Origin: Candidatus Woesearchaeota archaeon
GTDB lineage: Archaea; Nanobdellota; Nanobdellia; Woesearchaeales; 21-14-0-10-32-9
DNA: 64,000 nt
Assembly (NCBI GenBank): GCA_041660865.1
Contig: JBAZVO010000002.1
Span: 153,395-217,394 of the forward strand
Direction: 5' to 3'
Positions 7,617 to 58,234 of this stretch are shown here, one piece after another (the first letter of the stretch is position 1; each line of letters opens with the position of its first letter). The notes under the pieces were generated by a model. That model made no database searches. It had not been told where the DNA came from and saw nothing but the letters and a program-made list of their open reading frames with translations. Made by a program: the position numbers and the translations under genes.

Positions 7617-7749
7617 TCTGCACCCTCTTAATTATCCTCTTTTTAATTAATATATAAACTTTTGTCTTCTTTCGTTAATATTTAATCAATATTAGTTATT
7701 TAAATATGATATTTAAATTAGTAAATTATTAAATTTTATTTTATTTAAA

Positions 7750-29240: not shown

Positions 29241-31949
29241 ATGACGACACCTAAGAATAAACAAATCATGAAGATTTGCACACTTTTTGTAGGTATGTTG
29301 CTATTCTTTTCTTTTTTAGCAACAACAAGCATAGCCACTTGGTCTGGTGGAAATATTACAACAAACGCAATTTTAACAATTGCACCAATAAAAGCAAATG
29401 GTGCAGGAGTTAATATTACTGGTTCAAGCAACTATATTTCAGGAAATTATAATTCGATTTATACAGGTGCATTTTGGAAATTCTATGAACAAACAAATAC
29501 TGCGCCAACCATTAATTTAATTTATCCAACAAGTGAAACAGTAACTAATTCTACTATCAATAATATAATTTATTATGTAACCGACTCTGATGGTGATTTA
29601 TTAAATTGCACATTATATCATTCAAATACAATTAATCCAACAATTTATGAAACTAACAATTCTATTAATAACATAAATGTAACAACACAAATAACATCTA
29701 ATGATGGAACATATTACTTTAAAGTTAATTGTAGTGATGGATCAACTAGCACACAAAGTCCAATCTTTAATTATACAATAGATACAACTAAACCAATAGT
29801 TACGTTAATAACTCCTGAAAATAATAGTCTACTTTTGAATAATCCGATAATCTTCAATTACAACATATCAGACATAGGAGAAATACAAAATTGCTCTCTT
29901 CTTATTAATACAACAGGAACTATGCAAATTATCCAAACAGAATTACTTCCAACTAAAAATTCGACAAATAATTTTCAAGAAAATTTAATCGAAGGAACTT
30001 ATCTTTGGGAAATACTATGCGTTGATGAAACAGGAAATACAAATATACAAAACTCAAAAATATTTGAAATAAATAATTTGCCTCCAAATACAATAACTAA
30101 CCTATTAAATATAAGCAGCACAAATTACAGTATAACGTGGACGTGGACAAATCCAACAAATAATGATTTTGAAGGAAACATCATATACCTAGATGGACTA
30201 AATATAATTAACACAACAAGTCAAACATATACTGCAAATGGATTTTTAGGCAATACTAGTCATACAATAAAAATAAACACATACGATACGAGTAATAACA
30301 TAAATACAACAAACATAACAAGTACCGCATCAACTTTAAAAACCATATTAAATCAATCTTCTACTATAATAATACTTGATCCCATTCAACATACAACAAC
30401 AGATAAATCAAACATTAGTCTTGCTTACAGCGTATCAAATCCTAATAATATTAATAGTTGTAAATATTATTTAGATAATGACTTAGTAAAAATAAATACG
30501 AATATAAGCACGACAAATATTAATTATGATTATATATCAAATGTGTCTGATGGACCACACATACTAAAAATAGGGTGCACCACTGAATATTTAAAATATG
30601 ATCTTTCATCAATTACAAATTTTAAAATCATAGATTTAAGTGGATTTGATATTAAAACAAATTTAACTAATACATCATTAAATAATGTAACTAATTTCAC
30701 ATTAGAACAAAATACTATAGGAAAAATAACATTTGGAGGAGCAATTGATTTAACAAATGTAATAGATATAGGGAAAAATATTGAAATAACAACAAGAAGT
30801 ATCAAAGTTAACTCGACCGCATTACCAACATTTAATATTTCTGCAACACTTGAAATATATGATGTGCCCTACAATAATATCCTCATATGGAAAGATGGAA
30901 TGATTTGTCAAACATGTCAAATCATATCAACAAATGATCAAAAACTCATCTTTAATGTATCAGGATTCTCAACATATGTTATTACAAGTACTAGTAGTCT
31001 TAATACATGGGATTCATCAGATCTTGAAACAATATATGCAAATGAAACGATGAGTGTATTTGCAAATTACTCCGATATAATACTAGGCAATCCTCTAACA
31101 GGAACATGTAATATTACTATTTACGATACAACTTGGAGCACACCTACAATTATGAATTATAACTCAACAACTAAACTTCACACATACACAACTACACTTA
31201 CAAACGACGGACAACACCCATATAATATAAGTTGTGTAACTTCAACTGATGGATTTGATAATTTGACCGTTAGCGACATAATAGAAATATCTCCTATTCC
31301 AACAGTAACTCAAAGTTTTGCAAGTGTTAATATAACACAAATAGAATCATCAGCCTACAATGAAACACACATAGTAACAGGCGTTGAAGGAACACATGGA
31401 AACACCAGCCAACTTATGCTAAATATTACTATTGCAACAGATGCATGGCAAGGATATTATGGAAACATAACAACAACATTATTATTACTAGATGCCGATA
31501 GAAATACATTTTATAGTTGGAATACGTCATTAAAAACTGGCCAAATATTCGCATCAAGAACCGATGTCATAACGTGGGCCACAGTAGATTGTGCCACTCA
31601 AAACGTTCTAAATACTGAAGATTTAACTTTAGAAAAAAATGAAAGCGAAAGAGATAGCGTAAATAATACGTTCAGCATCACAACTCACCCTCAATTCGTT
31701 GTAGGTACATCACTAATAAAACATTGCAGATCAACTTTAATTCCTGGTGATGAAATCGCAGGGACTAACTTTTGGAATATTATAATCGCCGATGATTTCG
31801 GAACTGGAAGCGCAATATACACAGGCATAATAAATTCTAGCACACCAGGATTTAAAAACCTCGACGTTGATTTCGAACTTTTAGTTCCAGTAAATGGAAA
31901 AACACCTAATAATATTGTTCCATATTACTTCTTTTTGGAACTAGATTAG
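29241..31949 (+). CDS. Very large secreted surface protein with Ig/FN3-like repeats
   Basis: Signal peptide, Asn/Thr-rich sequence, dense N-x-S/T sequons and repeated ~90-aa beta modules. One module is FN3-like (YSITWTWTNPTNNDFEGNIIYLDG...HTIKINTYDTSNN). Confidence 0.65.
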   Translation: MTTPKNKQIMKICTLFVGMLLFFSFLATTSIATWSGGNITTNAILTIAPIKANGAGVNITGSSNYISGNYNSIYTGAFWKFYEQTNTAPTINLIYPTSETVTNSTINNIIYYVTDSDGDLLNCTLYHSNTINPTIYETNNSINNINVTTQITSNDGTYYFKVNCSDGSTSTQSPIFNYTIDTTKPIVTLITPENNSLLLNNPIIFNYNISDIGEIQNCSLLINTTGTMQIIQTELLPTKNSTNNFQENLIEGTYLWEILCVDETGNTNIQNSKIFEINNLPPNTITNLLNISSTNYSITWTWTNPTNNDFEGNIIYLDGLNIINTTSQTYTANGFLGNTSHTIKINTYDTSNNINTTNITSTASTLKTILNQSSTIIILDPIQHTTTDKSNISLAYSVSNPNNINSCKYYLDNDLVKINTNISTTNINYDYISNVSDGPHILKIGCTTEYLKYDLSSITNFKIIDLSGFDIKTNLTNTSLNNVTNFTLEQNTIGKITFGGAIDLTNVIDIGKNIEITTRSIKVNSTALPTFNISATLEIYDVPYNNILIWKDGMICQTCQIISTNDQKLIFNVSGFSTYVITSTSSLNTWDSSDLETIYANETMSVFANYSDIILGNPLTGTCNITIYDTTWSTPTIMNYNSTTKLHTYTTTLTNDGQHPYNISCVTSTDGFDNLTVSDIIEISPIPTVTQSFASVNITQIESSAYNETHIVTGVEGTHGNTSQLMLNITIATDAWQGYYGNITTTLLLLDADRNTFYSWNTSLKTGQIFASRTDVITWATVDCATQNVLNTEDLTLEKNESERDSVNNTFSITTHPQFVVGTSLIKHCRSTLIPGDEIAGTNFWNIIIADDFGTGSAIYTGIINSSTPGFKNLDVDFELLVPVNGKTPNNIVPYYFFLELD

Positions 31950-32000: not shown

Positions 32001-32091
32001 GGGACTTTAGCTCAGACTGGGAGAGCGCCACGCTGAAGACCTAAAAAGGACAGAGACGTGGAAGTCCTGGGTTCAAATCCCAGAGGTCCCA
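32001..32091 (+). tRNA. tRNA-Phe (GAA) with 17-nt canonical (37/38) intron
   Basis: Acceptor stem GGGACTT/AGGTCCC, D arm GCTC-AGACTGGGA-GAGC, anticodon stem CCACG/CGTGG with loop CT-GAA-G[intron]A, and T arm CTGGG-TTCAAAT-CCCAG. No CCA is encoded and a T-run follows. Confidence 0.93.
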
Positions 32092-37373: not shown

Positions 37374-38327
37374 TTAATTTTCAACAACAATATTTTTTAT
37401 TGCGAGTGTCGCGTATACTCCTTTACTTAGAAAAAAACGAAGAGTTACTTTTTTCATGCCTGAATTTAAATCATCATCAATCATATCATCAATTTTTAAA
37501 TTTTTAATTTCTGCTCTAACCAATCTATTTGCTCCTTCAAGACTTATTTCTGGAAAATCTCTTAAAATAAAATCTCTTTGAGTTAATTTTTCTACAGTTA
37601 AAATTTTCTCATATTCCTCTTTTATTCGTCCAATTAATTCTACTCCAAATCCTATTAATGGCACTTCTACAATTGATTCTTTTTCTAATAATTCTACAAC
37701 TCTATTCCAGAGTAAACTTTGATAAGCGTGAACATAAATCAATAACACTTTTCTTGGAACAATTTTTAAAGCATTTAAAAAAGCATTAGCGTTTTTAGAA
37801 AGACGCTCTTTTATTTTGTTTGAAATTACAGACTCTTCCTCGAGCAAAAGCTCGCATGCCTTTTTATAATCTTTTTTTATTATTGCTTTTCCTATATCTG
37901 CATTATTTTTCGAAAACCTTTGTGTATCAAAATAATTAATGAATTCTGAAATAGGTAAAATTTTGATTTTGTCAGAATCTATATTTCTAATAGTTATAAC
38001 AAAATTATTTCCTAACAAATCACCTAAAGATAAAGGACTAGATGTCTCTCCAACATACTTTAATGATATATCTTTCAACTCTATATCTTGTTTTGGAACT
38101 CCACTAATAGTTATATATTGAGACGTTAAAGCATTTCTATCTTTAGTTCCAGCGTATGAAATATTTTTTCTTTGAACCCTTAAAAAATCTGAAAGCCTAA
38201 TGATTGCATCTTCCGTGTTATAATTTCGTTTATTTAATAAAAACATAGCATATCGTCCATTATTAAATTCTCTATTAGTTACTTCTTCAACTATAAAATC
38301 TTCAGGAATTTGTTTCAATTCATACAT
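37374..38327 (-). CDS. truD: tRNA pseudouridine synthase TruD/Pus7 family
   Basis: N-terminal PEDFIVEEV and the catalytic motif YAGTKDRNALTSQYI (GxKD...A.T.Q). It is short (317 aa). Confidence 0.8.
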   Translation of the reverse strand: MYELKQIPEDFIVEEVTNREFNNGRYAMFLLNKRNYNTEDAIIRLSDFLRVQRKNISYAGTKDRNALTSQYITISGVPKQDIELKDISLKYVGETSSPLSLGDLLGNNFVITIRNIDSDKIKILPISEFINYFDTQRFSKNNADIGKAIIKKDYKKACELLLEEESVISNKIKERLSKNANAFLNALKIVPRKVLLIYVHAYQSLLWNRVVELLEKESIVEVPLIGFGVELIGRIKEEYEKILTVEKLTQRDFILRDFPEISLEGANRLVRAEIKNLKIDDMIDDDLNSGMKKVTLRFFLSKGVYATLAIKNIVVEN

Positions 38328-38581: not shown

Positions 38582-38675
38582 GCACCTGTAGCGCAGCTTG
38601 GATAGCGCGGCAGCCTCCTATGTGAACTAAACGAGAGCGAGTTGCAGGTCGTGGGTTCGAATCCCATCAGGTGCG
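38582..38675 (+). tRNA. tRNA-Arg (CCT) with 19-nt canonical (37/38) intron
   Basis: Acceptor stem GCACCTG/CAGGTGC, D arm GCGC-AGCTTGGATA-GCGC, anticodon stem GCAGC/GTTGC with loop CT-CCT-A[intron]A, and T arm GTGGG-TTCGAAT-CCCAT. Confidence 0.9.
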
Positions 38676-40000: not shown

Positions 40001-41527
40001 TTATTTTAATTTTAAATCTAGTAAAATCATAACTTTTTTACCATCTGCTTTTCCTTTAAGAGCGGACATAACTTTGCCCATAATTAGTCCTTTATTCGCA
40101 CCAGGGTTTTCAACAATAATTTTTTCTATAATATTTTCTATTTCAGAATCATCAACTTGTTTATATTTTTCAGATTTAAATTCTCCTGAACTTGCAACAT
40201 CAAATAAAACATCAGGTAAAGAAGATGAGGCTATATTTCCTGATGAAACACTCGTAAATAAAGGATCTTTAATTTTAAACCAATTTAATTTATTTCCAGA
40301 TTTTTTTTCAGCTTCAGGCACATTAATTAATATGCTACTAACAATATTTGAAGAGGAGAGATATTCTGAGCAATACTTGTTAAAATCATCTTCAAATGTA
40401 TATCCCTCTTCATTTTTGCTTTCATACTTAACTGCGAGAGCTGAAAGATCGTTGCTTAAACCATATTTTTTTACATAATGTTGCTCACGTTCTTTTAAAG
40501 TTAAAGGCTTATCTACATGAATATTACTTGAATCTATTGTTTCTATATCGGTTTCTGGATACATACGATCAGCGCCAGGCATAGGTCTTAAAAATGAAGT
40601 TGACATATCAGATTCTGCTTTTCTAACTTCAGATTCTATTTTTTTATTACTAATTTTTGCATCTTTAATTAAATTTATTTGTCTTTTAATTTCATTATCT
40701 ATAACAATCGGGATACTTCTTATATCTTGAAATCCTTTAATTTCAATTCGAGAACTTCCTTTAATTGAAATATTTACATCCTGTCTAATGGTTCCTATTC
40801 CTCTTAAAATTTTTCCCGTGCTTCTTAAAAGCATACCTATGTGTCCTGCAACTTCTTTACATTCATTAGGACTTCTAATATCAGGCGCAGTTGCAATTTC
40901 TATTAAAGGAATCCCAAGTCTTGATAAATTGTAAACATCTTTGTCATTTTTTCTCTCTATAACTTGACATGCGTCTTCTTCAAGACATAAAGTATCTACA
41001 CAAATTTTTTTACCATTAACTTCAACAAACCCATCATATCCTATAAGTGCTGTTCTTTGAAAACCTGATGTGTTTGATCCATCAATTACTGTTTTTCTCA
41101 TAAATTGTATACTATCAACAATTTTCATGTTAAGAAGTTTTGCCGCAATTAATGCAGCCTCTATTGATACCATATTTACAGGATGTGGTGGCTCTTCATC
41201 CATCTCAACAAGACACGTAGAATCATTGTATCCAAGATATTCAAATATTTTAGATTTTTGCTGTTCATGCAAAGCGGCCTTGTCAACTTTTCCAAGTTCT
41301 CCCGCGCTCGCTCTTAGTCTTCTTATAATAGAAAAATCAGGCACATCCTTTCTAATCTGACAAGGACAATTACAAAATAATTTTTTACCTGCAAGTTGCT
41401 GATGAATTTCAATCCCGCATTTAAACCCTAATTCTTCGTAATCGAAAACATTTTTAGATACAACTATTTCCTCTTTAACACTATTTTCTTGAGCAGGTTT
41501 ATCTTTTTTTATAATATGTTCACTCAT
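40001..41527 (-). CDS. gatE: Glu-tRNA(Gln) amidotransferase subunit E
   Basis: GFKCGIEIHQQL...KLFCNCPC, CLVEMDEEPPHPVN, GSNTSGFQRTALIG, GIPLIEIATAPDI and GTIRQDVNISI. It overlaps gatD by 4 nt. At 508 aa it seems shorter than the GatE proteins I recall. Confidence 0.85.
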   Translation of the reverse strand: MSEHIIKKDKPAQENSVKEEIVVSKNVFDYEELGFKCGIEIHQQLAGKKLFCNCPCQIRKDVPDFSIIRRLRASAGELGKVDKAALHEQQKSKIFEYLGYNDSTCLVEMDEEPPHPVNMVSIEAALIAAKLLNMKIVDSIQFMRKTVIDGSNTSGFQRTALIGYDGFVEVNGKKICVDTLCLEEDACQVIERKNDKDVYNLSRLGIPLIEIATAPDIRSPNECKEVAGHIGMLLRSTGKILRGIGTIRQDVNISIKGSSRIEIKGFQDIRSIPIVIDNEIKRQINLIKDAKISNKKIESEVRKAESDMSTSFLRPMPGADRMYPETDIETIDSSNIHVDKPLTLKEREQHYVKKYGLSNDLSALAVKYESKNEEGYTFEDDFNKYCSEYLSSSNIVSSILINVPEAEKKSGNKLNWFKIKDPLFTSVSSGNIASSSLPDVLFDVASSGEFKSEKYKQVDDSEIENIIEKIIVENPGANKGLIMGKVMSALKGKADGKKVMILLDLKLK

Positions 41528-42918
41528 AAAAAATCCTCGTTTTCCAATCTATCTAAAATTTCTCCTCGAAGATTTTTTGAATAAAGTTTTTTTGTATCAT
41601 CAAGAGAATAATTACTTAAAAGCCAAACAAGTTTAATATATGCAGTTTCAGTTGTCATATTAAGATTATGCCCAAGCACCCCTAAATCTTTAAGTGTACG
41701 TCCTGGCGAATAAACATTCAAATTTATTCTGCCAAAAACCGTCTGAGAAGTCATACACGCAACTTTCTTTGAAGCGATTTCTTCTATTATTTTCAATATT
41801 TCTTTATTTTGTTTTGTTGACTCATCAAATTGATCTATTGGAAAATGTCCAAGACCCGTTCCTTCTAAAATTAATCCATCAAATTTTTCGTAAATTTTTA
41901 ATTCTTCAGGAAGTAAACCTGGTCTTGATCTTATTATTCCTACCTTTATTGAAGGGTCGAATAATTTTAAAATTTTATTTTTTATAGTTGCAGGTTCATA
42001 CTGCATATTATTATGCAAAAAATTAATTGATTTATTTTCAAAATTTACTTTAGCAAAAATTCCGCCACTTATAACTTTAAATGCGTCACGTCTAGTAGAA
42101 TGGAGTTTTCTAACATTATGTGCTGGCAAAATAACACAAGAATCATCACTACTACTCTCATGCATACAAATAAATACTCCATTTGTATTATTTTCTTTTG
42201 ATTTTGAAATAAAATACGCTGCACTAAGTAAATTAAGCGCTGAATCACTACTAGGCCTATCGCTACTTCTCTGAGCGCCAACAATCACAATTGGAATAGG
42301 TAAATTTTCAAACATAAAAGAAAGCGCGGAAGAAGTATAATGCACCGTATCTGTTCCTTGTGTTAAAATTATACCTTTAATAGATTTAAGAGCGAGTGCT
42401 AACTCTATTGCTTTTGCCATTTCATTATAATGATAAAAATTTAAATCATCAGAAGGCATGTTACTTATTAATTTACTATCTATCTTCGCTATGTCTTTTA
42501 ATTCAGGAAAAAGTGAAATCATTTCACTAGGTGTAAATTTTGCATTAACTGCGCCTGTTGAATAATCAACTTTACTTGCAATAGTTCCGCCCGTATGTAA
42601 AATTATTATTTCTGAGTCTTTATCAAACTGAGTATTTTCTGAAATAATATTTGAAGAATCAAAAAAAGATTTGTGCGAATTTGCATGTAACTTACTAGAA
42701 GATTCTTTTAATAAATGAGACTTATCCTCTAAATCCATATTTACGCAAGATTTAATGTTCTTTTTTAAAATACCCATATTATATCCTGAATTTAATTTTA
42801 AATAAATAAATTCATTATTTTCAAAAACAAATATACCTTCATGCATAGAAGAATTACTCAATTCTAATTTATATTTTTCTCCTTGAACAAAGTTTTTTTC
42901 TTTCATCTTTTCACTCAT
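41524..42918 (-). CDS. gatD: Glu-tRNA(Gln) amidotransferase subunit D (asparaginase-like)
   Basis: ILHTGGTIASKVDYSTGAV (asparaginase Thr motif) and GIILTQGTDT. An N-terminal extra domain is present and the gene is paired with gatE. Confidence 0.9.
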   Translation of the reverse strand: MSEKMKEKNFVQGEKYKLELSNSSMHEGIFVFENNEFIYLKLNSGYNMGILKKNIKSCVNMDLEDKSHLLKESSSKLHANSHKSFFDSSNIISENTQFDKDSEIIILHTGGTIASKVDYSTGAVNAKFTPSEMISLFPELKDIAKIDSKLISNMPSDDLNFYHYNEMAKAIELALALKSIKGIILTQGTDTVHYTSSALSFMFENLPIPIVIVGAQRSSDRPSSDSALNLLSAAYFISKSKENNTNGVFICMHESSSDDSCVILPAHNVRKLHSTRRDAFKVISGGIFAKVNFENKSINFLHNNMQYEPATIKNKILKLFDPSIKVGIIRSRPGLLPEELKIYEKFDGLILEGTGLGHFPIDQFDESTKQNKEILKIIEEIASKKVACMTSQTVFGRINLNVYSPGRTLKDLGVLGHNLNMTTETAYIKLVWLLSNYSLDDTKKLYSKNLRGEILDRLENEDFL

Positions 42919-51526: not shown

Positions 51527-52447
51527 ATGATAAATCAAATTAAACAAACAACAAATAACCTAGAACAACCAATAAATAGTCTAGAACAAATAACAACTAA
51601 CATAGAACTAACAACAAATAACATAGATCCAACAACAACCAAATCGAAACAAAAAGAATATGTTGGAGTTACGGGGTTTAAAACAAAAGAAGAAATTGAA
51701 ATAGCATCTAATGCATTTAAAATCGCAGGCATAAATAAAAACAGCAAGATTACTGGAATGTATGGATTTCTAATCACGGATGATCAAATATTTGATTTTA
51801 AAGAAAAAGGAGTATTATCTCCATCGTTAAATGCACTTCCAAATCTTATTAAAACTGTTCCTAAAGGCATGATGCCCACAATTCATTATTGTAGTCGTAC
51901 AAGAGATTTAAATTTAGATAAATTAATGCATCTTTTATATCATGTTAATACATTTAGCGACTGTAACTTTTTGCAATTAAATCTTGATTGGCCGAACCCA
52001 AAAAAAATAGAGACACTAAAAAAAATAATGCCTAACATGTATATAATTTTACAACTCGATCCAGAACAACAATCAATAAATGATGCTATAAAAAAAATCA
52101 TAATAAACTATGAAGGACTTGCAGATAAAATTTTAATTGACTCGTCGCACGGAGCAGGAATACCTTATGATTCCAAAACAACATCTAAAATGATGATGAA
52201 AATTGATGCTGATACATCTATGTTTTCGTACACGATATGTGGTGGTTTAACTGAAAACAATGTTTACAAAAGAATCATTGAACTAAAACAAATTATCAAA
52301 CAAGAATATCCATACATGCGATCGAAAATTCCTTTTTCCGTAGATGCTCAAGGGCAACTTAGAACTTTTGATAATTCGAATCTAAATTACGAGCGCGTAA
52401 CTAATTATATTTGCAACGCTGTTAAAGGCTTGAAAGATAGAATTTGA
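51527..52447 (+). CDS. Hypothetical TIM-barrel-like protein (weak resemblance to phosphoribosylanthranilate isomerase)
   Basis: YVGVTGF, LIDSSHGAGIPYD and CGGLTENNV loosely recall TrpF motifs. The Thr/Asn-rich N-terminus is encoded by degenerate DNA repeats. Confidence 0.3.
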   Translation: MINQIKQTTNNLEQPINSLEQITTNIELTTNNIDPTTTKSKQKEYVGVTGFKTKEEIEIASNAFKIAGINKNSKITGMYGFLITDDQIFDFKEKGVLSPSLNALPNLIKTVPKGMMPTIHYCSRTRDLNLDKLMHLLYHVNTFSDCNFLQLNLDWPNPKKIETLKKIMPNMYIILQLDPEQQSINDAIKKIIINYEGLADKILIDSSHGAGIPYDSKTTSKMMMKIDADTSMFSYTICGGLTENNVYKRIIELKQIIKQEYPYMRSKIPFSVDAQGQLRTFDNSNLNYERVTNYICNAVKGLKDRI

Positions 52448-52575: not shown

Positions 52576-53043
52576 TTATTTTTTCTTTTTAACATCAACT
52601 TTTTCTTTAGATGCAACTTTTGCTTGTGTCGCTGCTGCACCTTCAGCTTTTATTGATGGCAAAGGTATTGGTGAAGGTAAACCTAATTCTTTTGAAAGAA
52701 TTATAACTTCTAAAGCACATCTATTCATAACACTATTAAGTATTGTTCTTGCTGATTCCGGATCTAATTTCTTTTCTTTACTCCATTGAGTTGTTACTTT
52801 TGTAACCTCTTCATTAGAGCCTAAAACGAGAATTTCTCCTTTTAATTCTATTGTTGCGAAATTTGGATTGTAATCTGTTTTGAAACTAAAGCCAACTTTG
52901 AATGCTTGCTTTGTTGGACTTGCTCCCATTTTTGCTTCATCTACTGATTCTATTTTTACATTATTAGCAATAGAAAGTCCCCCTCTTGGTATCGCTGTTC
53001 TATTCGCATTTATGTTTGTAAAACTTATATTGATTATATTCAT
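52576..53043 (-). CDS. Hypothetical protein (155 aa), possible SecB-like fold
   Basis: The size and the pattern of beta strands followed by a long helix (IINISFTNINA / NVKIESV / FKVGFSFKTDY / ATIELKGEILVLG / ARTILNSVMNRCALEVIILSKELGLPSPIPLP) resemble SecB. This is pattern-level only. Confidence 0.3.
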   Translation of the reverse strand: MNIINISFTNINANRTAIPRGGLSIANNVKIESVDEAKMGASPTKQAFKVGFSFKTDYNPNFATIELKGEILVLGSNEEVTKVTTQWSKEKKLDPESARTILNSVMNRCALEVIILSKELGLPSPIPLPSIKAEGAAATQAKVASKEKVDVKKKK

Positions 53044-53156: not shown

Positions 53157-54587
53157 TTATTTTAAACCATAGCCTATAGTAATTACTGGTTTGAAACCAA
53201 GAGCGTTTAATTTATCATCATTTAAAAATTCAGAGGATTGTTTTTCTATAGCTTCAACATAAGATGCGCCAAATGCAGTTTTTCTTCCGCGAGCTCTTTC
53301 GTTTCTTGAAAACTGATAAACGATGATTCCATCTTCATTGCTTGTTTTTTTCAAAACTAAATCCGTATTATCAACAATTATATGATTTACAAGATCAGTT
53401 AAATACGCGCTATCCTTATTGCTCTTTGTCATTAATCGAGGAATATACGCATCAACAACTAAACCTTCTTCTCTTCTAACATCAATAAATATTTCTAATT
53501 TTTGATTTTCTTCTTTTCTTTTATCGACGGCCTTCACAACATCTAAATATGAAACGAATTCTTCTTCGTATTGACTTATTTTGCTTAATATGTCTTTACT
53601 TTTTTTATATGTACTTATAGCTTGATTGGCCATCTTTTCAAAAACAACAAGTTCTTGTTCTTTTTTGAAAATAGCTTCTTCAGTTTGAACAATAAGAGCC
53701 TCCACACCAGAATTTTGTAGCACTGATTTTGCACTATTCAAAGAGTCTAATTGCGCTAATGCTTCAGCATATTTTTTAACAGGACCTAAATCTTCTTCTT
53801 TTGAAACAAGAGTTGTTTTTTTCCAATTATCAAAATCAGATTCATTAACCATATTATGATGAAAATAAAGTGATTTGAGAAAACTCATAAAATTTGGCGA
53901 ACGAACTGTAGAAGTTTCAGCTTTCAAAAGACTTAACATATCATTTGAAATAAATTCCAAATCATCGCCTAAATTATCATAACGTCCAACGCTTGCTTTT
54001 ACTTCACTTATTATAAATTCAGATCTAGATTTTGGAACACGTAATAGTTTATTTTCTAAGAAGATAGATTTATTTCGAAACAGTTCAGATTCTACATCCA
54101 TTAACTCCATTGATACAATATTCATACCTATTTCTTTTTCATACTCTTTTAATTTATCATTTAACGTTTGAATAATTCCGACATATTCACAAGATTTACA
54201 ATTAGGTTCAATGTTCTGGGCGCTTTCTTTTACTGCATTATCTAGATAGCTTTGAAATATAGGCGTCATTTCTAAATTTAATCCTTCTTTTATTCTGTTA
54301 TTTATTCTACCGCTTTTTAATGCCTCAGTCATTATTGAAGATGGATCCAAAAAACCAACTTTATTATCAAAATACAAATCTAATTGAATTTCAAATTTGT
54401 TTGAATTTGTGTCTAAAATAGTAGTTCTAAATGTAGGCGTGAGACTTAAAAGATATTTAGTTTTTAGAACATTATCAAGAGCCGTTTTAACAGTGTGTCC
54501 TACGCCCTTTTCACCTTTAACGCCCGCTCCAAAAGTTCCTTGAACTAATACACTTAAGTAAGGTTGATTATTATTTCCGTTTGCCAT
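53157..54587 (-). CDS. Hypothetical protein (476 aa)
   Basis: Long ATG-started ORF with a coiled-coil-like central region. No recognisable catalytic motifs. It lies directly upstream of the 155-aa gene. Confidence 0.55.
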   Translation of the reverse strand: MANGNNNQPYLSVLVQGTFGAGVKGEKGVGHTVKTALDNVLKTKYLLSLTPTFRTTILDTNSNKFEIQLDLYFDNKVGFLDPSSIMTEALKSGRINNRIKEGLNLEMTPIFQSYLDNAVKESAQNIEPNCKSCEYVGIIQTLNDKLKEYEKEIGMNIVSMELMDVESELFRNKSIFLENKLLRVPKSRSEFIISEVKASVGRYDNLGDDLEFISNDMLSLLKAETSTVRSPNFMSFLKSLYFHHNMVNESDFDNWKKTTLVSKEEDLGPVKKYAEALAQLDSLNSAKSVLQNSGVEALIVQTEEAIFKKEQELVVFEKMANQAISTYKKSKDILSKISQYEEEFVSYLDVVKAVDKRKEENQKLEIFIDVRREEGLVVDAYIPRLMTKSNKDSAYLTDLVNHIIVDNTDLVLKKTSNEDGIIVYQFSRNERARGRKTAFGASYVEAIEKQSSEFLNDDKLNALGFKPVITIGYGLK

Positions 54588-54749: not shown

Positions 54750-55316
54750 ATGTCAAATATAATTATTATTCATGGATCTTTTGGAAATCCAAAAGAAAAT
54801 TGGTTTCCATATATGAAAAAAGAACTTGAATTAAAAGGACACAGAGTTTTTATTCCAAAATTTCCAACACCAAAACAATCATTAACTTCATGGATGAAAA
54901 TTTTTGAAAAATATCAAAAATACTTGAATGAAAATACAATAATTATAGGACATAGTTTAGGCCCCTCGTTTTTACTTAGTGTTCTTGAAAAATCAAATAT
55001 TAAAATTAAAGCCGCATATTTTGTTTCAGGTTTTATTGGTGACCTTGGTAACAACGAATTTGATAAAATTAATAAAACATTCACGACCAAAAAATTTAAT
55101 TGGTCTTTGATAAAAAATAATTGTAAATATTTTTGCGTAATAAATTCAAATGATGATCCTTATGTTCCGTTAAAAAAAGGAAAAGAACTTTCAAAAAAAA
55201 TAAATGCTGAATTTATAATTTTAAAAAATGCAGGACATATTAACACGTCTTCAAATTATAAAACATTTCCCTTTCTTCTTAATAAAGTATTAAAAAAAAT
55301 AGAACATGACTCTTAA
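54750..55316 (+). CDS. Alpha/beta serine hydrolase (YdeN/RBBP9-like)
   Basis: IIIIHGSFGNPKENWF, the nucleophile elbow IIGHSLG, and later NSNDDPYVP and NAGHIN give a Ser-Asp-His order in a 188-aa protein. Confidence 0.6.
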   Translation: MSNIIIIHGSFGNPKENWFPYMKKELELKGHRVFIPKFPTPKQSLTSWMKIFEKYQKYLNENTIIIGHSLGPSFLLSVLEKSNIKIKAAYFVSGFIGDLGNNEFDKINKTFTTKKFNWSLIKNNCKYFCVINSNDDPYVPLKKGKELSKKINAEFIILKNAGHINTSSNYKTFPFLLNKVLKKIEHDS

Positions 55317-57062
55317 TTAATCTAGAATTTCAAAATCTAAACAAATTCTAAACACTCTTGGAGCGTGTTGACCGCATTTTACAAGTGCAATTTTTTTCCA
55401 TGTTTTGCCTACTCTTTTACATGCTTCATCAACTAATTTTTCGGCTTCTATAAAATTATCGACGTGTAAAAAGTAATAAAAATGAATAATGGTTCCTTTT
55501 TTAGATGCAATAATTGCACTATCAAGAAAATCTCCTGCGCTTTTTGGCAAAGGCATCAATATTCTATCGAATTTTTTTTGCAAAGAAATTATTTTTCTAT
55601 AACTATTTATCATTTCTTCTGCTTTAGATTCATTTGAATTTATAACTTCTATAATTCCTAAATTAACTAAAGGTAAAATTTTGTCAAAGTCTATTTTTCC
55701 AGATCCTATTACTAGCCCTTCTTTTTGACCATCAGAATCTGAAAGATGAAAATAAGTATTAAAATTCTCTTGCATAACTTTTATATGATTAATTAATTTA
55801 TCATTATCCTTATAAAAAATATATAAATGTGAAACATCTATGCACATATTTTTTATTTGAGCAGCTTTACCTATTCTTAATATTTCATAAGTATCGCTAA
55901 AATTGAGAATTGCATTTTCAAAATAAAAATAATCGTAATATTCTTTAAGTTTTTTTATATTATTTATTAATTCATCCTCCGATATTTCAGGTAATGCAAT
56001 ACCTACATGCACTATTGCTTTAATATCATATTGCTTACATATACTTCCAAGAGAGTTTAATACTTTAAAAACTTCAGTTGTATCTTTTGACCCAAGCCAG
56101 CAGCTTTTATTTTCTGGAAATGGCATGTGAAGAAATATTTTTATTCCTTTCTTTTTTAATTCGACGATATTTTTTTCTAATTTCGATCTATTACTAAACA
56201 AATCCTCAGGAAATAAATGAAACTCCATCAAAGTTGGATTTTCTGCAAGTCTTAATGATAATTCATTCTCAATTATCGCTGATTTTAAACCAATTATGTT
56301 AGAATATAATTTTGGAACAACTAACTTAACATCTCCATTAATTAAAGTTACATTTTTTATTTTATTTAATTCTAAATTCTTAAGACCGTATCTGTGTCCT
56401 TCGGGATTTATTTCAATTCCAGTTATCGTTTTGGCTTTCGTATTTTTTGCAAGAGTGCAAGGATAAGGCGCACAACCTGAAAACATAACAAGTACATCTT
56501 CACCTGATTTTATTTCTTCTGAAATTCTTTTTCTTTCAGTTGATAATCTTGGAGAAAAATATACTTCTTCAACATTTAAAAGTAAATTAACTCCGTTTTC
56601 TTTATGAATAGTTTCTTTTGTATTTTCTCCTGCAAGCCATTTCATTTTTTGAGTTCTAAATTCTCCATCATGCTTGTCATCTTTTCTAAGAACTGTTTTT
56701 ATATGAGGATTTGATTTTAATAAAGCTTCAGCGATTATATTTTCTTTTTTTCTTAAATCGTCATCAATTTCTAAAATTGCTATAGTCCCAACAGTATCAA
56801 ATGCTGTTTTTAATAAATCAAATTCTCCATTTGATAATTGCCCAACAAGCAACGTCTTAAGATCTCTTGCTGTTCCAACTTCTTTTTTAATGAATTCTTT
56901 TTCAACTATTTCAAAACCTACAAAATTAGGCATTCTTTTTAGCGGGAAAAACATTACGTCTTCATTTTTTTCAAAAAAATAATTTTGATCTAGAATATCT
57001 TCTTCTATTATTTTCTTTTTTGCTTTTTCAGCATCTATTAAATTAACTTTAAGTCCGAACAT
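55317..57062 (-). CDS. trm5: Trm5/Taw22-type tRNA (m1G37) methyltransferase with an inserted xylose-isomerase-like TIM-barrel domain
   Basis: The Met_10-type N-part (FDTVGTIAILEI, VYFSPRLSTERKRI, VLVMFSGCAPY, TGIEINP, LINGDV) and C-part (FDRILMPLPKSAGDFLD, GTIIHFYYF) are separated by about 245 aa. That segment carries AP-endonuclease-2/sugar-isomerase TIM-barrel motifs (FLHMPF, AIVHVG, FENA, CIDVSHLY, FHLSDSDG...GSGKIDF). The ATG is at 57062 (the track's TTG is at 57122). Confidence 0.75.
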   Translation of the reverse strand: MFGLKVNLIDAEKAKKKIIEEDILDQNYFFEKNEDVMFFPLKRMPNFVGFEIVEKEFIKKEVGTARDLKTLLVGQLSNGEFDLLKTAFDTVGTIAILEIDDDLRKKENIIAEALLKSNPHIKTVLRKDDKHDGEFRTQKMKWLAGENTKETIHKENGVNLLLNVEEVYFSPRLSTERKRISEEIKSGEDVLVMFSGCAPYPCTLAKNTKAKTITGIEINPEGHRYGLKNLELNKIKNVTLINGDVKLVVPKLYSNIIGLKSAIIENELSLRLAENPTLMEFHLFPEDLFSNRSKLEKNIVELKKKGIKIFLHMPFPENKSCWLGSKDTTEVFKVLNSLGSICKQYDIKAIVHVGIALPEISEDELINNIKKLKEYYDYFYFENAILNFSDTYEILRIGKAAQIKNMCIDVSHLYIFYKDNDKLINHIKVMQENFNTYFHLSDSDGQKEGLVIGSGKIDFDKILPLVNLGIIEVINSNESKAEEMINSYRKIISLQKKFDRILMPLPKSAGDFLDSAIIASKKGTIIHFYYFLHVDNFIEAEKLVDEACKRVGKTWKKIALVKCGQHAPRVFRICLDFEILD

Positions 57063-57199
57063 ATTTCTTAAGAGCGCAGCGTTATTTATAACTTTTTTTA
57101 ATAAATTTAAAGAATAGTTCAAATAAATAACTCATAAAGAACTCATAACGAAGTTATAAAAAAATCATAAATAATTTGTAAAGAACTTATAAAATATTA

Positions 57200-58234
57200 T
57201 TAAAACCAAGAACTAAGTCCTTTTTGCTCGTTTTGTTTTTTATATTTTTCGAGTTTTTCAAGAGATGATTGTACTCTTTCCTCAGAAAAATCATGTTCAT
57301 CAACAAGAATTTTTTTTATTTTATCAAAATCTGGATCTTTGAATACTATTTCATAATCTTTTTTTAAAGGCATATCTTTTATTGTGTCAAATATTCTTTG
57401 CCAACTAACAAATCCTGTATCTTCCCATTTTGCTTCTTCAAATATTTTTGTATAATCATCTTTATATTTTTTAACAAGTGCGAGTGCTTTTTTCGGGCCT
57501 ATTCCTTTAACACCACCATAATTATAATCAGTACCTACAAGAATTGCAAGAATTATAAGTTGATCTTGAGTTAAATCCATTTCTTTTAAATTTTGCTGCA
57601 AATCAAGTAACTCAGGAACAACATTTTTGAATGCATGAGTTCCGGGAATTTTTCGTCTTCCAGTTATTGACAAATTTCTTATTGTTCTAGGTGCACCTGA
57701 AAGTAAACTATCTGCATCTTGACTCATAACTGCGAATGCGTCTCCGTTTTTTACAAGAAATGCTGCTTGCGATTCGCCTTCGCTTGGTGCAAGTATTATA
57801 GGCATACCCATAGCCTCTATTAATTCTTTTGCTTCAGCGATCATTTCTTTTGAAAGAATCGCGGTTCTTGCCGCATATTTTTTCATATTCTCTACATGTT
57901 CTTGCTCTTTTGCTTCTTCATAGAGTTTGGTTGCTTCCTCTTTTAACTGTTTTCGTCTTTCTCTTTCTTCTCTTTTTAATTCAGGCGCCAAACCATCAAA
58001 CACAAAAATAAATTTTACTCCTTTTTCCATCAAATTTGAAAATCTAGAAAAAAGACCTACAAGATGGCTTGTTATTCGTCCTTGAGAATCCGTTAACGGA
58101 CTACCATCAGGTCCTCTTATTGTTGTTATGAACATATATAAAATATTAAAGGAATCAACAGCTAGTATTTTGCCTTTTAAATCTTCTATTTTTAATTCTT
58201 CAGATTTAAGAATATTTGATATTGCAGCGCCCAT
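57200..58234 (-). CDS. fen1: Flap endonuclease 1
   Basis: MGAAISNIL start, AVDSFNILY, FVFDG, PSEGESQAA, MSQDADSLL, the H3TH motif LVGTDYN..VKGIGPKKA, and a C-terminal PIP-like SSWF. Confidence 0.93.
   Translation of the reverse strand: MGAAISNILKSEELKIEDLKGKILAVDSFNILYMFITTIRGPDGSPLTDSQGRITSHLVGLFSRFSNLMEKGVKFIFVFDGLAPELKREERERRKQLKEEATKLYEEAKEQEHVENMKKYAARTAILSKEMIAEAKELIEAMGMPIILAPSEGESQAAFLVKNGDAFAVMSQDADSLLSGAPRTIRNLSITGRRKIPGTHAFKNVVPELLDLQQNLKEMDLTQDQLIILAILVGTDYNYGGVKGIGPKKALALVKKYKDDYTKIFEEAKWEDTGFVSWQRIFDTIKDMPLKKDYEIVFKDPDFDKIKKILVDEHDFSEERVQSSLEKLEKYKKQNEQKGLSSWF

What the first reader, a model, noticed from the sequence alone, without database searches (positions are those of the whole stretch)
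55575..56312. A complete TIM-barrel (xylose-isomerase/AP-endonuclease-2-like) domain is inserted inside the catalytic Rossmann fold of Trm5
In Trm5/Taw22 enzymes the strand ending ...GD(A/V) is normally followed within about 10 residues by the D-R-(I/V)-x-M-x-L-P substrate-binding motif. Here LINGDV (aa ~261-265 of the 601-aa track ORF) and FDRILMPLP (aa ~518-526) are separated by about 245 residues.

The intervening residues carry an ordered set of TIM-barrel sugar-isomerase/endonuclease-IV-family motifs: FLHMPF, AIVHVG, FENA, CIDVSHLY and FHLSDSDG..GSGKIDF.

The ORF is continuous and in frame. There are no intein-like boundary residues (no Cys/Ser start and no His-Asn end).

This is a nested-domain architecture that I do not recognise as described. 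It could couple tRNA G37 methylation or wyosine-type chemistry with a second metal-dependent activity. It could also be a fixed domain insertion that the fold tolerates.
Basis: partly seen in the sequence, partly recalled or inferred. Interest (0 to 1): 0.65.

Follow-up and report, generated by a model that had tools for sequence, protein, structure and literature searches.

The report
Endonuclease-IV-like barrel nested inside Trm5
A groundwater DPANN archaeon (Woesearchaeota-type) encodes a tRNA G37 methyltransferase (Trm5) with a complete metal-binding TIM-barrel enzyme domain spliced into its catalytic fold; the design recurs in many related uncultured archaea, and I found no published description of it.

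Summary

**The gene.** It lies at window 55317-57062 on the minus strand and encodes 581 aa from the ATG. The upstream TTG that would give 601 aa has no homolog support.

**The host.** It is a full Trm5 with D1, D2 and Rossmann D3 domains.

**The insert.** D3 is interrupted between strand β3 (INGD244V) and the β4 / NPPY-like motif (FDRILMPLPK) by about 245 aa (Y253-K497, window 55572-56306).
- Alone, the insert passes Pfam PF01261.
- It folds as a complete (β/α)8 barrel (AF2 pLDDT 96).
- It keeps an endonuclease-IV-type set of metal ligands that is invariant in 111 homologs.
- Its nearest characterised relatives are endonuclease IV and the CbiR phosphodiesterase. It is a member of neither.

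**Distribution.**
- More than 100 protein clusters share the design, as do at least 32 of the 80 best GTDB species loci.
- Syntenic orthologs about 80% identical lack the insert cleanly.
- One lineage keeps a ligand-less copy.

**Checks.** Independent assemblies confirm continuity. No paper in the searchable library describes this architecture.

**Reading.** The most likely reading is a bifunctional enzyme: an m1G37 methyltransferase (possibly Taw22-like) plus an active metal-dependent phosphoesterase. The barrel's substrate is unknown; tRNA or another nucleic acid is inference only.

**Novelty.** This is a new variant of a known kind.

The parts
55317..57062 (-). Whole gene: nested Trm5 / TIM-barrel protein, 581 aa plus stop. 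The TTG at 57122 is an unsupported upstream extension.
   Evidence: ORF list. The database twin P0001 is 581 aa. Homologs all start at MFGLKV/MLxxK. AF2 of the full length gives pLDDT 94.0 and pTM 0.84.
56865..57062 (-). Trm5 D1 domain (about aa 1-66), the tRNA-elbow-sensing domain found in Trm5b-type enzymes.
   Evidence: Pfam PF18093 Trm5_N at 24.2 bits, against a gathering score of 22.7. It is the least conserved region, with mean pairwise identity 0.32. About a quarter of nested homologs lack it.
56619..56861 (-). Trm5 D2 domain (about aa 68-148). It includes R136, which aligns with MjTrm5 R145.
   Evidence: Pfam PF25133 TYW2_N_2 at E=8.5e-19. Residue mapping comes from the 2yx1 alignment and position check. 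R136 is invariant in 60 sequences.
56307..56612 (-). Rossmann D3 domain, N-terminal half (aa 151-252), comprising β1-β3. It carries Y168, E176, the MFSG motif, E217 and D244, which align with MjTrm5 Y177, E185, D223 and D251.
   Evidence: PF02475 stretch 1, profile positions 1-106 of 164. Alignment to 2yx1 and 5yac. These residues are invariant or nearly invariant.
55572..56306 (-). Inserted (β/α)8 TIM barrel, Y253-K497. It belongs to the PF01261 superfamily and is endonuclease IV / CbiR-like. In insert-less orthologs it is replaced by three residues (NRT).
   Evidence: - PF01261 E=3e-8 for the insert alone, and 22 of 26 homolog inserts match.
- A profile of the inserts against PDB sequences hits only Mtb endonuclease IV, 5zhz, at E=2e-5.
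- AF2 gives pLDDT 96.1.
- Foldseek hits include 3wqo, 5zhz, 2nq9, 2j6v and 10nh.
- Boundaries come from the alignment with P0059 and P0072 and from the codon-level comparison.
55647..56285 (-). Span holding the conserved putative catalytic and metal-ligand residues of the barrel:
- K260 (56283-56285)
- E280 (56223-56225)
- H312 (56127-56129)
- H352 (56007-56009)
- E382 (55917-55919)
- D409 (55836-55838)
- H412 (55827-55829)
- H439 (55746-55748)
- D442 (55737-55739)
- E448 (55719-55721)
- E472 (55647-55649)
   Evidence: - K, E, H, H, E, D, H, H and E are invariant or at least 98% conserved in 111 inserts. D442 is 93% conserved.
- Position 448 is H, E or D in 101 of 111 sequences.
- The residues align with E. 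coli Nfo H69, H109, E145, D179, H182 and H216, the D229/H231 loop, and E261. The Nfo ligand numbering is from my own knowledge of Hosfield et al. 1999, a paper cited in PMC7733943.
- Coordinates were checked.
55320..55571 (-). Rossmann D3 domain, C-terminal half (F498-D581), comprising β4-β7. It includes the NPPY-like motif P504-L-P506-K507 (55542-55553).
   Evidence: - PF02475 stretch 2. 5yac residues 258-344 align here.
- FDRILMPLP is invariant.
- Pro at the first NPPY position is the aTrm5a/Taw22-type variant (PMC5113207, PMC5714064).

Best explanation
The gene encodes a single polypeptide with two enzyme modules.

**Host module.** The host is an archaeal Trm5 with D1, D2 and a class-I Rossmann D3 domain. 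It keeps every residue known to be needed for G37 N1-methylation. Its NPPY-like motif is PLPK, the Pro-type variant associated with bifunctional Trm5a/Taw22 enzymes.

**Guest module.** The guest is a compact but complete (β/α)8 barrel of the AP_endonuc_2 / xylose-isomerase-like superfamily. It is inserted with very short linkers into the β3-β4 connection of D3, about 6 residues upstream of the β4 / NPPY catalytic strand.

**Metal site.** The barrel keeps a multi-metal ligand constellation of the endonuclease IV type. This comprises His on β3 and β4, Glu on β5, Asp-x-x-His on β6, His on β7, an acidic or His residue in the β7 loop, and Glu on β8.

**Proposed function.** I therefore propose that the barrel is an active metal-dependent phosphoesterase, cleaving an O3'-P type bond as Endo IV and CbiR do. 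On this proposal the Trm5 scaffold, which docks the anticodon loop, delivers it to a nucleic-acid substrate. The most likely such substrate is tRNA, for example end-healing or cleavage at or near a damaged or processed position 37/38.

**Shown here.**
- The architecture.
- Integrity of both folds.
- Conservation of both active sites.
- Wide distribution of the design.
- Clean secondary loss in close orthologs.

**Inferred only.**
- Catalytic activity of the barrel (about 0.75).
- Phosphoesterase rather than sugar-isomerase chemistry (about 0.55).
- tRNA as the substrate (about 0.3).

The overall confidence given (0.5) refers to the statement 'bifunctional Trm5 with an active metal-dependent phosphoesterase barrel'; the architecture itself is near-certain and the tRNA-substrate step is the weakest link.
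For: **Architecture.**
- Both Trm5 halves flank the insert and are contiguous in solved Trm5 structures.
- The full-length AF2 model has pLDDT 94 and pTM 0.84. Foldseek alignments to Trm5b, Trm5a and MjTrm5-tRNA complexes span the insert with TMt 0.68-0.74, and to TYW2 with TMt 0.86-0.88.

**Host active site.** R136, Y168, E176, E217, D244 and P506 align with MjTrm5 R145, Y177, E185, D223, D251 and P267, and are invariant or nearly invariant.

**Guest fold and family.**
- PF01261 is above its gathering score.
- The isolated domain has pLDDT 96.
- Structural neighbours are MJ1311 (3wqo), Endo IV (5zhz, 2nq9, 4k1g), UVDE and APN1.
- A profile of 26 inserts against all PDB sequences hits only Mtb endonuclease IV significantly (E=2e-5). 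None of the sugar epimerases in PDB is hit.
- NCBIfam sub-threshold hits go mostly to the CbiR phosphodiesterase and to deoxyribonuclease IV.

**Metal ligands.** The ligand positions are invariant in 111 homologs, although the insert as a whole is only 38% identical pairwise. Each maps one-to-one onto the Nfo ligands.

**Wider distribution and orthology.**
- The design occurs in more than 100 clusters and in at least 32 GTDB species.
- Synteny confirms orthology with insert-less forms.
- CbiR shows that this superfamily includes non-DNA phosphodiesterases acting on a nucleoside 3'-phosphodiester (PMC7733943).
Against: - There is no biochemical evidence of any kind.
- Foldseek cannot separate Endo IV from ketose 3-epimerases: the top hit is the DTE-like MJ1311, and TM-scores are similar.
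- All matches to nfo and CbiR models are far below their family cut-offs. E. coli Nfo does not detect the insert by phmmer, and hhalign gives only 19% probability.
- Standalone relatives of the insert sit in heterogeneous contexts, some sugar-related. These include a GFO/IDH/MocA oxidoreductase neighbour, a DegT aminotransferase cluster, and NeuB fusions.
- The insert has been lost in close orthologs and has lost its ligands in L068, so its function is dispensable or replaceable.
- The insert is not basic: pI is 5.8 here and 7.6 on average.
- Model coordinates are not exposed, so the distance and orientation between the two active sites are unknown. From topology, the barrel termini lie on the face opposite its catalytic face, and the insertion point is at the N-terminal end of β4. 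The two sites may therefore point away from each other. This is inference.
Confidence: 0.5

Rival explanations
1. The barrel is an independent small-molecule enzyme with no mechanistic link to tRNA. It could be a sugar, sugar-phosphate or nucleotide-derivative isomerase, epimerase, dehydratase or phosphodiesterase. On this reading, a standalone gene of a small TIM-barrel family landed in a permissive surface loop of Trm5. It is retained because the barrel's own function is useful, and the host merely tolerates it.
For: - Standalone homologs of 250-290 aa exist that begin exactly at the IGLKS strand and keep the same ligands.
- Some lie next to sugar-type genes or are fused to NeuB-like synthases.
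- The best Foldseek hit is a D-tagatose-3-epimerase-like protein.
- The E-D-H-E core of the ligand set is shared with ketose epimerases (own knowledge; superfamily overview in PMC7733943).
- Clean loss of the insert leaves an apparently normal Trm5 at the same locus.
Against: - His on β3 and β4 and the β7-loop ligand are invariant. These are Endo IV-type positions that mononuclear epimerases do not need.
- By sequence, the only significant PDB relative is Endo IV.
- The nesting has been maintained across sequences down to about 43% identity, and in divergent Trm5 subtypes. Over that span gene fission would be expected if the two modules were unrelated.
- The linkers are short and the full-length pTM is high, which suggests an integrated unit.
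Confidence: 0.3
2. The barrel now serves mainly a structural role and does no catalysis. Possible roles are an extra RNA-binding surface, an oligomerisation module, or a stabiliser of D3.
For: - L068 (Ca. Nanoarchaeia STD2_164) keeps a same-sized insert in which 8 of 9 ligand positions are replaced (H>K, H>P, E>S, H>I, H>G and so on).
- Some nested forms lack D1, which might be compensated by the barrel.
Against: - In the window protein and in 111 homologs all ligand positions are intact and are the most conserved columns of an otherwise fast-evolving domain. That is the signature of a working active site.
- L068 is the only degenerate case seen among 33 nested GTDB loci.
Confidence: 0.1
3. 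The feature is an artefact or a mobile insertion: a chimeric assembly, an intein, an intron-like element, or two genes wrongly read as one.
For: None was found. The insertion is precise enough to be lost cleanly, which superficially recalls a mobile element.
Against: - The reading frame is continuous.
- A Logan contig from the raw run is identical over 2.6 kb, and a contig from a second study crosses the N-side junction.
- The same nesting occurs in more than 100 independent assemblies.
- There is no intein or Hint domain, and the fold is a TIM barrel.
- No repeat or duplication is visible at the junction codons.
Confidence: 0.01

Closest known systems
Archaeal Trm5 (aTrm5b MJ0883 / PAB Trm5b; aTrm5a/Taw22 PAB2272), PDB 2yx1, 2zzn, 5yac, 5wt1
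   Same: - The D1-D2-D3 organisation is the same.
- PF18093, PF25133 and PF02475 are all above their thresholds.
- The catalytic Arg, Tyr, Glu and Pro residues and the AdoMet-binding acidic residues are conserved.
- It is probably the only Trm5 of its clade in each genome.
- The first position of the NPPY-like motif is Pro, as in Trm5a/Taw22.
   Different: - A 245-aa TIM barrel is inserted between β3 and β4 of the Rossmann fold. No described Trm5, Taw21, Taw22 or Taw2 has this.
- NCBIfam equivalog cut-offs are not reached (231 bits against 600 for Trm5b, and 184 against 550 for Taw22).
- The motif is PLPK, a hybrid of NLPK (Trm5b) and PTPK (Trm5a).
Endonuclease IV (Nfo/End/Apn1), PDB 5zhz, 2nq9, 10nh
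   Same: - Both are (β/α)8 barrels.
- His, His, Glu, Asp-x-x-His, His, an acidic or His loop residue, and Glu sit at the C-terminal ends of β3-β8, matching the three-metal site.
- The H-x-P-[FY] motif after the first His is shared.
- Endo IV is the only significant PDB hit by sequence profile.
   Different: - Sequence similarity is very weak (E=2e-5 by profile only; phmmer with Nfo finds nothing).
- The barrel is about 40 residues shorter, so the DNA-binding loops are probably trimmed.
- The H231-equivalent is Glu in the window protein.
- It has an invariant Lys on β1 and Glu on β2 that are not Endo IV features.
- It is embedded in another enzyme.
CbiR cobamide-remodelling phosphodiesterase (Akkermansia muciniphila; NF041277)
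   Same: - It belongs to the same superfamily.
- It is the most frequent named NCBIfam hit for the inserts (4 of 26) and for their standalone relatives (6 of 8).
- It shows that this fold can hydrolyse a nucleoside 3'-phosphodiester outside DNA.
   Different: - Scores are 19-29 bits against a cut-off of 105.
- There is no cobamide gene context here.
- CbiR is a standalone, oxygen-sensitive bacterial enzyme.
MJ1311 D-tagatose-3-epimerase-like protein (PDB 3wqo) and ketose 3-epimerases (2zvr, 4xsl, 3cqj)
   Same: - They are the best or near-best structural neighbours (E 5.5e-11, TM 0.66-0.78).
- The E-D-H-E core ligands are shared.
   Different: - No significant sequence-profile match was found.
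- The additional invariant His residues on β3 and β4 and the β7-loop ligand are not part of the mononuclear epimerase site.
Standalone 'IGLKS' TIM-barrel proteins of uncultured archaea and bacteria (e.g. P0130, P0148, P0154; unnamed)
   Same: - They are true family members of the insert (E 1e-55 to 1e-17 over the whole profile).
- They have the same start (IGLKS strand), the same ligands and the same length.
   Different: - They are free-standing genes, or rarely NeuB-fused.
- Their function is unknown, and their genomic contexts are heterogeneous.

Membership tests
Trm5 / TYW2 methyltransferase (Pfam PF02475 with PF25133 and PF18093) | Domain models score above Pfam gathering scores, and both halves of the MTase domain are present. 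| tested here: met
   PF02475 scores 127.5 bits (gathering score 28) in two stretches. PF25133 scores 67.9 bits (27.7) and PF18093 scores 24.2 bits (22.7). The two halves are contiguous in 5yac, 5wt1 and 2yx1.
Trm5 (m1G37 methyltransferase) | Catalytic and AdoMet-binding residues are conserved: MjTrm5 R145, Y177, E185, D223, D251 and P267. | tested here: met
   R136, Y168, E176, E217 (Asp to Glu), D244 and P506 align to these residues. They are invariant or at least 90% conserved in 60 nested homologs. The roles of the residues are taken from PMC5113207 and PMC5714064 and from my own knowledge.
NCBIfam equivalogs Trm5b (NF047730) and Taw22 (NF047728) | Whole-protein score is above the curated cut-off. 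| tested here: not met
   Trm5b scores 230.8 bits against a cut-off of 600. Taw22 scores 184.2 bits against 550. The protein is therefore a Trm5-family member by domain, but no curated subfamily can be assigned.
Trm5 | Enzymatic m1G37 formation (and imG2 formation if Taw22-like) on tRNA. | not testable with these tools
   This needs an in vitro methylation assay.
AP_endonuc_2 / xylose-isomerase-like TIM barrel superfamily (PF01261) | The profile match is above the gathering score and the fold is a (β/α)8 barrel. | tested here: met
   - The insert alone scores 34.0-34.2 bits against a gathering score of 31.1.
- 22 of 26 homolog inserts match, with best E 9.6e-15.
- In the full-length protein the hit is masked.
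- The AF2 model has 8 strands and 8 helices at pLDDT 96.
- Foldseek gives probability 1.0 to family structures.
Endonuclease IV (Nfo) | Nine ligands of the trinuclear metal site: H69, H109, E145, D179, H182, H216, D229, H231 and E261. | tested here: inconclusive
   - Seven positions align directly with invariant residues: H312, H352, E382, D409, H412, H439 and E472.
- The D229/H231 loop aligns within one residue. It has D442/D444 and E448 in the window protein, and H in 78 of 111 homologs.
- Metal content is not testable here.
Endonuclease IV (Nfo) | The curated family model is matched (TIGR00587 / NF002198). | tested here: not met
   Only 2 of 26 inserts give sub-threshold hits, with best E 1.6e-4 and cut-offs around 244 bits. 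phmmer with E. coli Nfo finds nothing.
Endonuclease IV (Nfo) | DNA-binding and nucleotide-flipping loops are present, and the protein has AP-endonuclease activity. | not tested
   Only the aromatic residue at the Y72-equivalent position (F315 in HMPF) was noted. Loop geometry needs coordinates, and activity needs an assay.
CbiR cobamide-remodelling phosphodiesterase (NF041277) | The score is above the cut-off (105 bits), and the gene lies in a cobamide biosynthesis context. | tested here: not met
   The best score is 28.9 bits. No cobamide genes are among the 20 window genes scanned.
Intein / mobile protein insertion | A Hint domain is present, with Cys/Ser/Thr at the N-terminal splice junction and His-Asn plus a nucleophile at the C-terminal junction. 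| tested here: not met
   No intein family was hit. The insert starts YSNIIGLK and ends ISLQKK|F. Its fold is a TIM barrel.

The most novel reading that the evidence does not exclude
The nested barrel may be a tRNA-directed metallo-phosphoesterase. On this reading it uses the Trm5 scaffold to reach the anticodon loop and carries out a so far unknown step at or next to position 37.

Candidate steps are:
- processing or healing of the 37/38 phosphodiester, which is the canonical archaeal intron site (the window's own tRNA-Phe gene has an insertion in the anticodon loop; its placement after G37 was read by eye);
- cleavage of tRNA that has lost its labile wyosine-type base.

This would be the first Endo IV-superfamily enzyme acting on tRNA. 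It would also be the first tRNA methyltransferase with an internal second catalytic domain.
Probability: 0.2. Interest if true: 0.85.

Novelty: new variant of a known kind. Interest (0 to 1): 0.62.

Why it matters
**For tRNA biology.** Trm5 is one of the best-studied tRNA modification enzymes and is essential for reading-frame maintenance. A lineage-wide version that carries a second, apparently active metallo-enzyme inside its catalytic domain was not anticipated. It points to an unknown activity linked, physically at least, to position-37 chemistry in DPANN archaea. These organisms have minimal genomes and a poorly understood RNA-processing repertoire.

**For protein evolution.** This is a clean natural example of a domain inserted into a Rossmann fold a few residues from the catalytic strand. 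Natural controls are available:
- orthologs about 80% identical without the insert;
- one ortholog with a catalytically dead insert;
- free-standing relatives of the insert.

**For annotation.** Hundreds of database entries are currently labelled 'hypothetical', 'TIM barrel protein' or plain Trm5.

Tried and rejected
1. **Misassembly, intein or two fused genes.** Rejected.

2. **A second Trm5 or a free copy of the barrel elsewhere in the window.** None was found with HMMs of the insert and of the full protein. No canonical Nfo was found in the window or in 90 loci.

3. **The two unannotated genes between FEN1 and the insert-less Trm5 in L002 as an excised copy of the barrel.** They are unrelated to it.

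4. **Function from the genomic context of standalone relatives.** Seven loci were inspected and the contexts are heterogeneous. They include:
   - an RsmB-type MTase;
   - a GFO/IDH/MocA oxidoreductase;
   - a DegT sugar cluster;
   - CTP synthase and SRAP;
   - PBP;
   - defence genes.
   No consistent signal emerged.

5. **Profile-profile comparison with E. coli Nfo alone.** It gave only a partial alignment at 19% probability.

6. **Surface charge as a hint of nucleic-acid binding.** It was uninformative, because E. coli Nfo itself is acidic.

7. **The search for related loci with the insert-only alignment.** It failed because no stretch was conserved enough. The full-length alignment was used instead.

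8. **Geometry of the two active sites.** Model coordinates are not exposed by the tools (one search shows no model files), so this could not be measured.

9. **Literature.** Five searches found no description of this architecture.
Full report
**1. The observation**

The region lies inside one uninterrupted ORF on the minus strand, 55317..57122 (601 aa from a TTG). The identical database protein P0001 is 581 aa. All homologs begin at the ATG 20 codons downstream (MFGLKV...), so the real gene is 55317-57062. All residue numbers below use this 581-aa protein.

The host domains are recovered on both sides of the insert.
- Pfam finds Trm5_N (D1), TYW2_N_2 (D2) and the TRM5-TYW2 methyltransferase domain in two separate stretches.
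- Against solved structures, P. abyssi Trm5b (5yac), P. abyssi Trm5a (5wt1, 5hji) and M. jannaschii Trm5 (2yx1) each align in two pieces.
- These pieces are adjacent in the crystal chain (for example 5yac residues 20-257 and 258-344) but about 246 residues apart in the query.

Boundaries come from alignment with close homologs that lack the insert. Those read ...INGDVxxEVPKL-NRT-FDRILMPLP. The window protein reads ...VPKL252|Y253...K497|F498DRILMPLP. The insert is therefore 245 aa at window 55572-56306, replacing three residues.

**2. The insert is a complete, independently folding TIM barrel**

- In the full-length scan the barrel is masked. Scanned alone, it passes the Pfam gathering score for PF01261 (AP_endonuc_2 / xylose-isomerase-like TIM barrel; 34 bits against 31.1, E=3e-8). 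22 of 26 diverse homologous inserts also match, with best E 9.6e-15.
- AlphaFold2 of the insert alone, with a 26-sequence alignment, gives pLDDT 96.1 and pTM 0.93. The model has eight β-strands alternating with helices.
- Foldseek against the PDB returns only this superfamily at the top (E 5e-11 to 1e-8). Hits are MJ1311 'D-tagatose-3-epimerase-like' (3wqo), M. tuberculosis and E. coli endonuclease IV (5zhz, 2nq9, 4k1g), UV-damage endonuclease, Apn1 and ketose 3-epimerases.
- The full-length model, built with 60 sequences, has pLDDT 94.0 and pTM 0.84. Its Foldseek alignments to Trm5 structures run across the insert, with TM normalised to target of 0.68-0.74 for three-domain Trm5 and 0.86-0.88 for TYW2. 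The Rossmann fold is therefore predicted to be intact around the guest.

**3. It is not an artefact**

- The window sequence is present in two groundwater metagenome runs from different studies.
- A 19.9-kb Logan contig of one run covers 54900-57500 with no difference. A 712-nt contig of the other run crosses the N-side junction.
- The same nested design occurs in more than 100 protein clusters at 43-66% identity from independent assemblies.
- It also occurs in at least 32 of the 80 best GTDB species loci. Their records are mostly labelled Woesearchaeota, Nanoarchaeota, Nanoarchaeia or Nanobdellota; many binned MAGs are labelled 'uncultured Methanosarcinales'.
- It is not an intein. There is no Hint match, the fold is a TIM barrel, and there are no splice-junction residues.

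**4. The host looks like a working Trm5**

From the 2yx1 alignment and coordinate check, the window residues map as follows:

| Window residue | MjTrm5 residue |
|---|---|
| R136 | R145 |
| Y168 | Y177 |
| E176 | E185 (general base) |
| E217 | D223 |
| D244 | D251 |
| P506 | P267 |

All are invariant or at least 90% conserved in 60 nested homologs.

The NPPY-like motif is P504-L-P-K, whereas MjTrm5 has N265 at the first position. Published work states that aTrm5b/c have Asn or Asp at this position and aTrm5a/Taw22 have Pro or Thr. It also reports that Asn sterically excludes the tricyclic imG-14 (PMC5113207 and PMC5714064). The protein could therefore be Taw22-like and bifunctional; this is inference only.

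NCBIfam ranks Trm5b first and Taw22 second, both far below the equivalog cut-offs. Among the first 63 of the 80 best GTDB loci (L008-L070) no assembly contributes two loci. This is weak support for a single Trm5 of this clade per genome.

**5. What kind of barrel?**

Conservation within the insert is uneven.
- Across 111 inserts the domain as a whole evolves faster than the host. Mean pairwise identity is 0.38, against about 0.60 for D2 and D3.
- A small set of residues is invariant or nearly so: K260, E280, H312, H352, E382, D409, H412, H439, D442 (93%), G469 and E472.
- Position 448 is H, E or D in 101 of 111 sequences, and is Glu in the window protein.

These residues match the Endo IV metal site.
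- They sit at the C-terminal ends of β1-β8 of the model.
- In the HMMER alignment to Mtb Endo IV and the MAFFT alignment to E. coli Nfo, seven of them align directly with Nfo ligands H69, H109, E145, D179, H182, H216 and E261 (E261 only by its position on β8). The D229/H231 loop aligns within one residue.
- The H-x-P-[FY] and C-x-D-x-x-H motifs are also shared.
- The Nfo ligand list is from my own knowledge of Hosfield et al. 1999, a paper cited in PMC7733943.

Other comparisons point the same way.
- A profile of 26 inserts searched against all PDB sequences hits only Mtb endonuclease IV significantly (E=2.1e-5). That set contains many ketose epimerases and isomerases of this fold, and none of them is hit.
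- Against NCBIfam, inserts and their standalone relatives give sub-threshold hits most often to the CbiR cobamide-remodelling phosphodiesterase, and next to deoxyribonuclease IV.
- CbiR is a recently characterised member of this superfamily. [quoted passage not shown]

The sequence evidence therefore places the insert nearer the phosphodiesterase branches than the sugar-isomerase branches. It belongs to none of the named families.
- A search of 1.84 billion representative proteins with the insert profile finds only 324 proteins at E<=1e-3. This is a small, distinct family.
- Foldseek alone cannot discriminate between the branches, because MJ1311 and the epimerases score as well as Endo IV.

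**6. Origin and evolutionary dynamics**

The insert has free-standing relatives.
- The representative search recovers proteins of 245-290 aa that cover the whole profile, begin at the same IGLKS strand and keep the same ligands (P0130, P0138, P0148, P0151, P0153, P0154 and others).
- More distant copies are fused behind NeuB-like sialic-acid synthase domains (P0259, P0263).
- A whole gene of this family was therefore inserted into Trm5.
- The contexts of the free-standing genes are heterogeneous and give no functional signal.

The insert has also been lost.
- Seven of the 120 best full-length hits are 338-341-aa Trm5 proteins without the insert.
- Over the Trm5 part alone they are 76-83% identical to the window protein. 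That is as close as, or closer than, the nearest insert-bearing homologs at about 79%.
- In a neighbour-joining tree of the Trm5 part, six of them are interleaved with the window protein and P0002 inside the large insert-bearing clade.
- One of them, P0072, lies in the same gene neighbourhood as the window gene: UDPGP, FEN1, Trm5, a MazE-like gene and CDC48.
- The simplest reading is an ancestral insertion followed by one or more clean secondary losses.

Other variants show further states.
- In L068 (Ca. Nanoarchaeia STD2_164) a same-sized insert persists, but 8 of 9 ligand positions are replaced.
- More divergent nested forms still keep the ligands. Some of them have FDH, FDC or FEH in place of FDR before the NPPY motif.

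**7. Mechanism: what is shown and what is inferred**

Shown:
- A single polypeptide with an intact Trm5 and an intact, conserved metal-site barrel in the β3-β4 connection.
- Linkers of five residues or fewer, with the insertion point about six residues before the β4 / NPPY strand.

Inferred:
- The barrel is catalytically active, because its ligands are the most conserved columns of a fast-evolving domain.
- It is a metal-dependent phosphoesterase, judged from its nearest characterised relatives and the Endo IV-type ligand set.
- Because it is rigidly mounted on a protein whose job is to dock the tRNA anticodon loop, its substrate may be tRNA or another nucleic acid.

One contextual note bears on the third inference. 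The window's own tRNA-Phe(GAA) gene carries a 17-nt insertion in the anticodon loop. Read by eye, it is a canonical intron directly after G37. The phosphodiester next to Trm5's target nucleotide would then be a processing site in this organism, as in archaea generally.

Points against a tRNA-coupled role:
- The insert can be lost.
- Standalone relatives exist, sometimes in sugar-type contexts.
- From topology, the barrel's catalytic face may point away from the Rossmann active site. I could not measure this because model coordinates are not exposed.

I put the chance that the barrel is active at about 0.75, phosphoesterase chemistry at about 0.55, and tRNA as the substrate at about 0.3.

**8. 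Comparison with what is known, and novelty**

- The host is a Trm5-family member by domain and by active-site criteria. It cannot be assigned to a curated subfamily.
- The guest is a member of the PF01261 superfamily. It is not a member of Nfo, CbiR or any named epimerase family.
- Five full-text searches returned no description of this architecture. The combinations searched were Trm5 + TIM barrel + insertion; Trm5 + DPANN; Trm5 + xylose isomerase-like; Woesearchaeota + tRNA methyltransferase / endonuclease IV; and the Trm5a structure literature.
- Source annotations are 'hypothetical protein', 'TIM barrel protein' or plain Trm5.

I therefore rate it a new variant of a known kind. It is real, lineage-wide and apparently undescribed, with natural insert-less and dead-insert controls that make the question directly testable.

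Noticed in passing
window 57063-57122 (minus strand): The mechanical ORF starts at a TTG 20 codons upstream of the ATG. No homolog covers these 20 residues, and the database protein starts at the ATG (581 aa).
   Followed up: yes
window 32001-32091 (+) and 38582-38675 (+): Two tRNA genes of 91 and 94 nt have 17- and 19-nt insertions in the anticodon loop. The first reads by eye as tRNA-Phe(GAA), with G37 followed by a canonical-position intron. The second appears to be tRNA-Arg(CCU). ARAGORN found only the second and could not type it.
   Followed up: partly
L068 3647-5404 (JAQUVJ010000012.1, Ca. Nanoarchaeia archaeon STD2_164): This nested Trm5 keeps the size of the insert (585-aa protein) but has lost 8 of 9 metal-ligand positions (H>K, H>P, E>S, H>I, H>G and so on). 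It looks like a natural 'dead barrel' variant.
   Followed up: partly
L002 (GCA_053576915.1 JBNGFE010000003.1) 7317-11026: A syntenic insert-less ortholog (P0072, 341 aa, about 81% identical over D2+D3) lies here. Two extra unannotated genes (237 and 230 aa, opposite strand) sit between FEN1 and Trm5 and are absent from the window. They are unrelated to the barrel.
   Followed up: yes
P0259, P0263, P0266 (representative-library hits): Distant relatives of the insert are fused to the C-terminus of NeuB/PseI-like sialic-acid synthase domains. This hints that part of the wider family works in nonulosonic-acid or sugar pathways.
   Followed up: no
P0208, P0214, P0217 (nested, 568-611 aa): Divergent nested Trm5 forms replace the otherwise invariant FDR before the NPPY-like motif by FDH, FDC or FEH, and have YRLEEL instead of FRTQK. 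This may be a second Trm5 subtype carrying the same insert.
   Followed up: no
L009, L012, L015, L021 and many other loci: Many GTDB records that carry this Woesearchaeota-type gene are titled 'uncultured Methanosarcinales archaeon' (binchicken and SRP co-assemblies). One protein cluster is labelled Alphaproteobacteria. These are probably taxonomic mislabels in the source records.
   Followed up: no
window 27201-29180 (+), 29241-31946 (+), 53160-54587 (-), 51527-52444 (+), 52579-53043 (-): Several ORFs of 155 to 902 aa have no Pfam match at all.
   Followed up: no
window 54750-55316 (+) / 55317 (-): A convergent Ser_hydrolase (PF06821) gene ends at 55316. This directly abuts the stop codon of the Trm5 gene (55317-55319), so there is no intergenic spacer for a terminator.
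   Followed up: no
window 40004-42918 (-) and 37377-38327 (-): GatE-like (GatB_N) and GatD-like (asparaginase) genes lie next to each other, and a TruD-type pseudouridine synthase gene is nearby. This is consistent with an archaeal origin of the contig.
   Followed up: no
L089 (LFCJ01011776.1) 2034-5170: A standalone relative of the insert (P0156) lies about 1.8 kb from an SRAP-domain gene. SRAP is an abasic-site-sensing family. This is a single occurrence and is not conserved in other loci.
   Followed up: no
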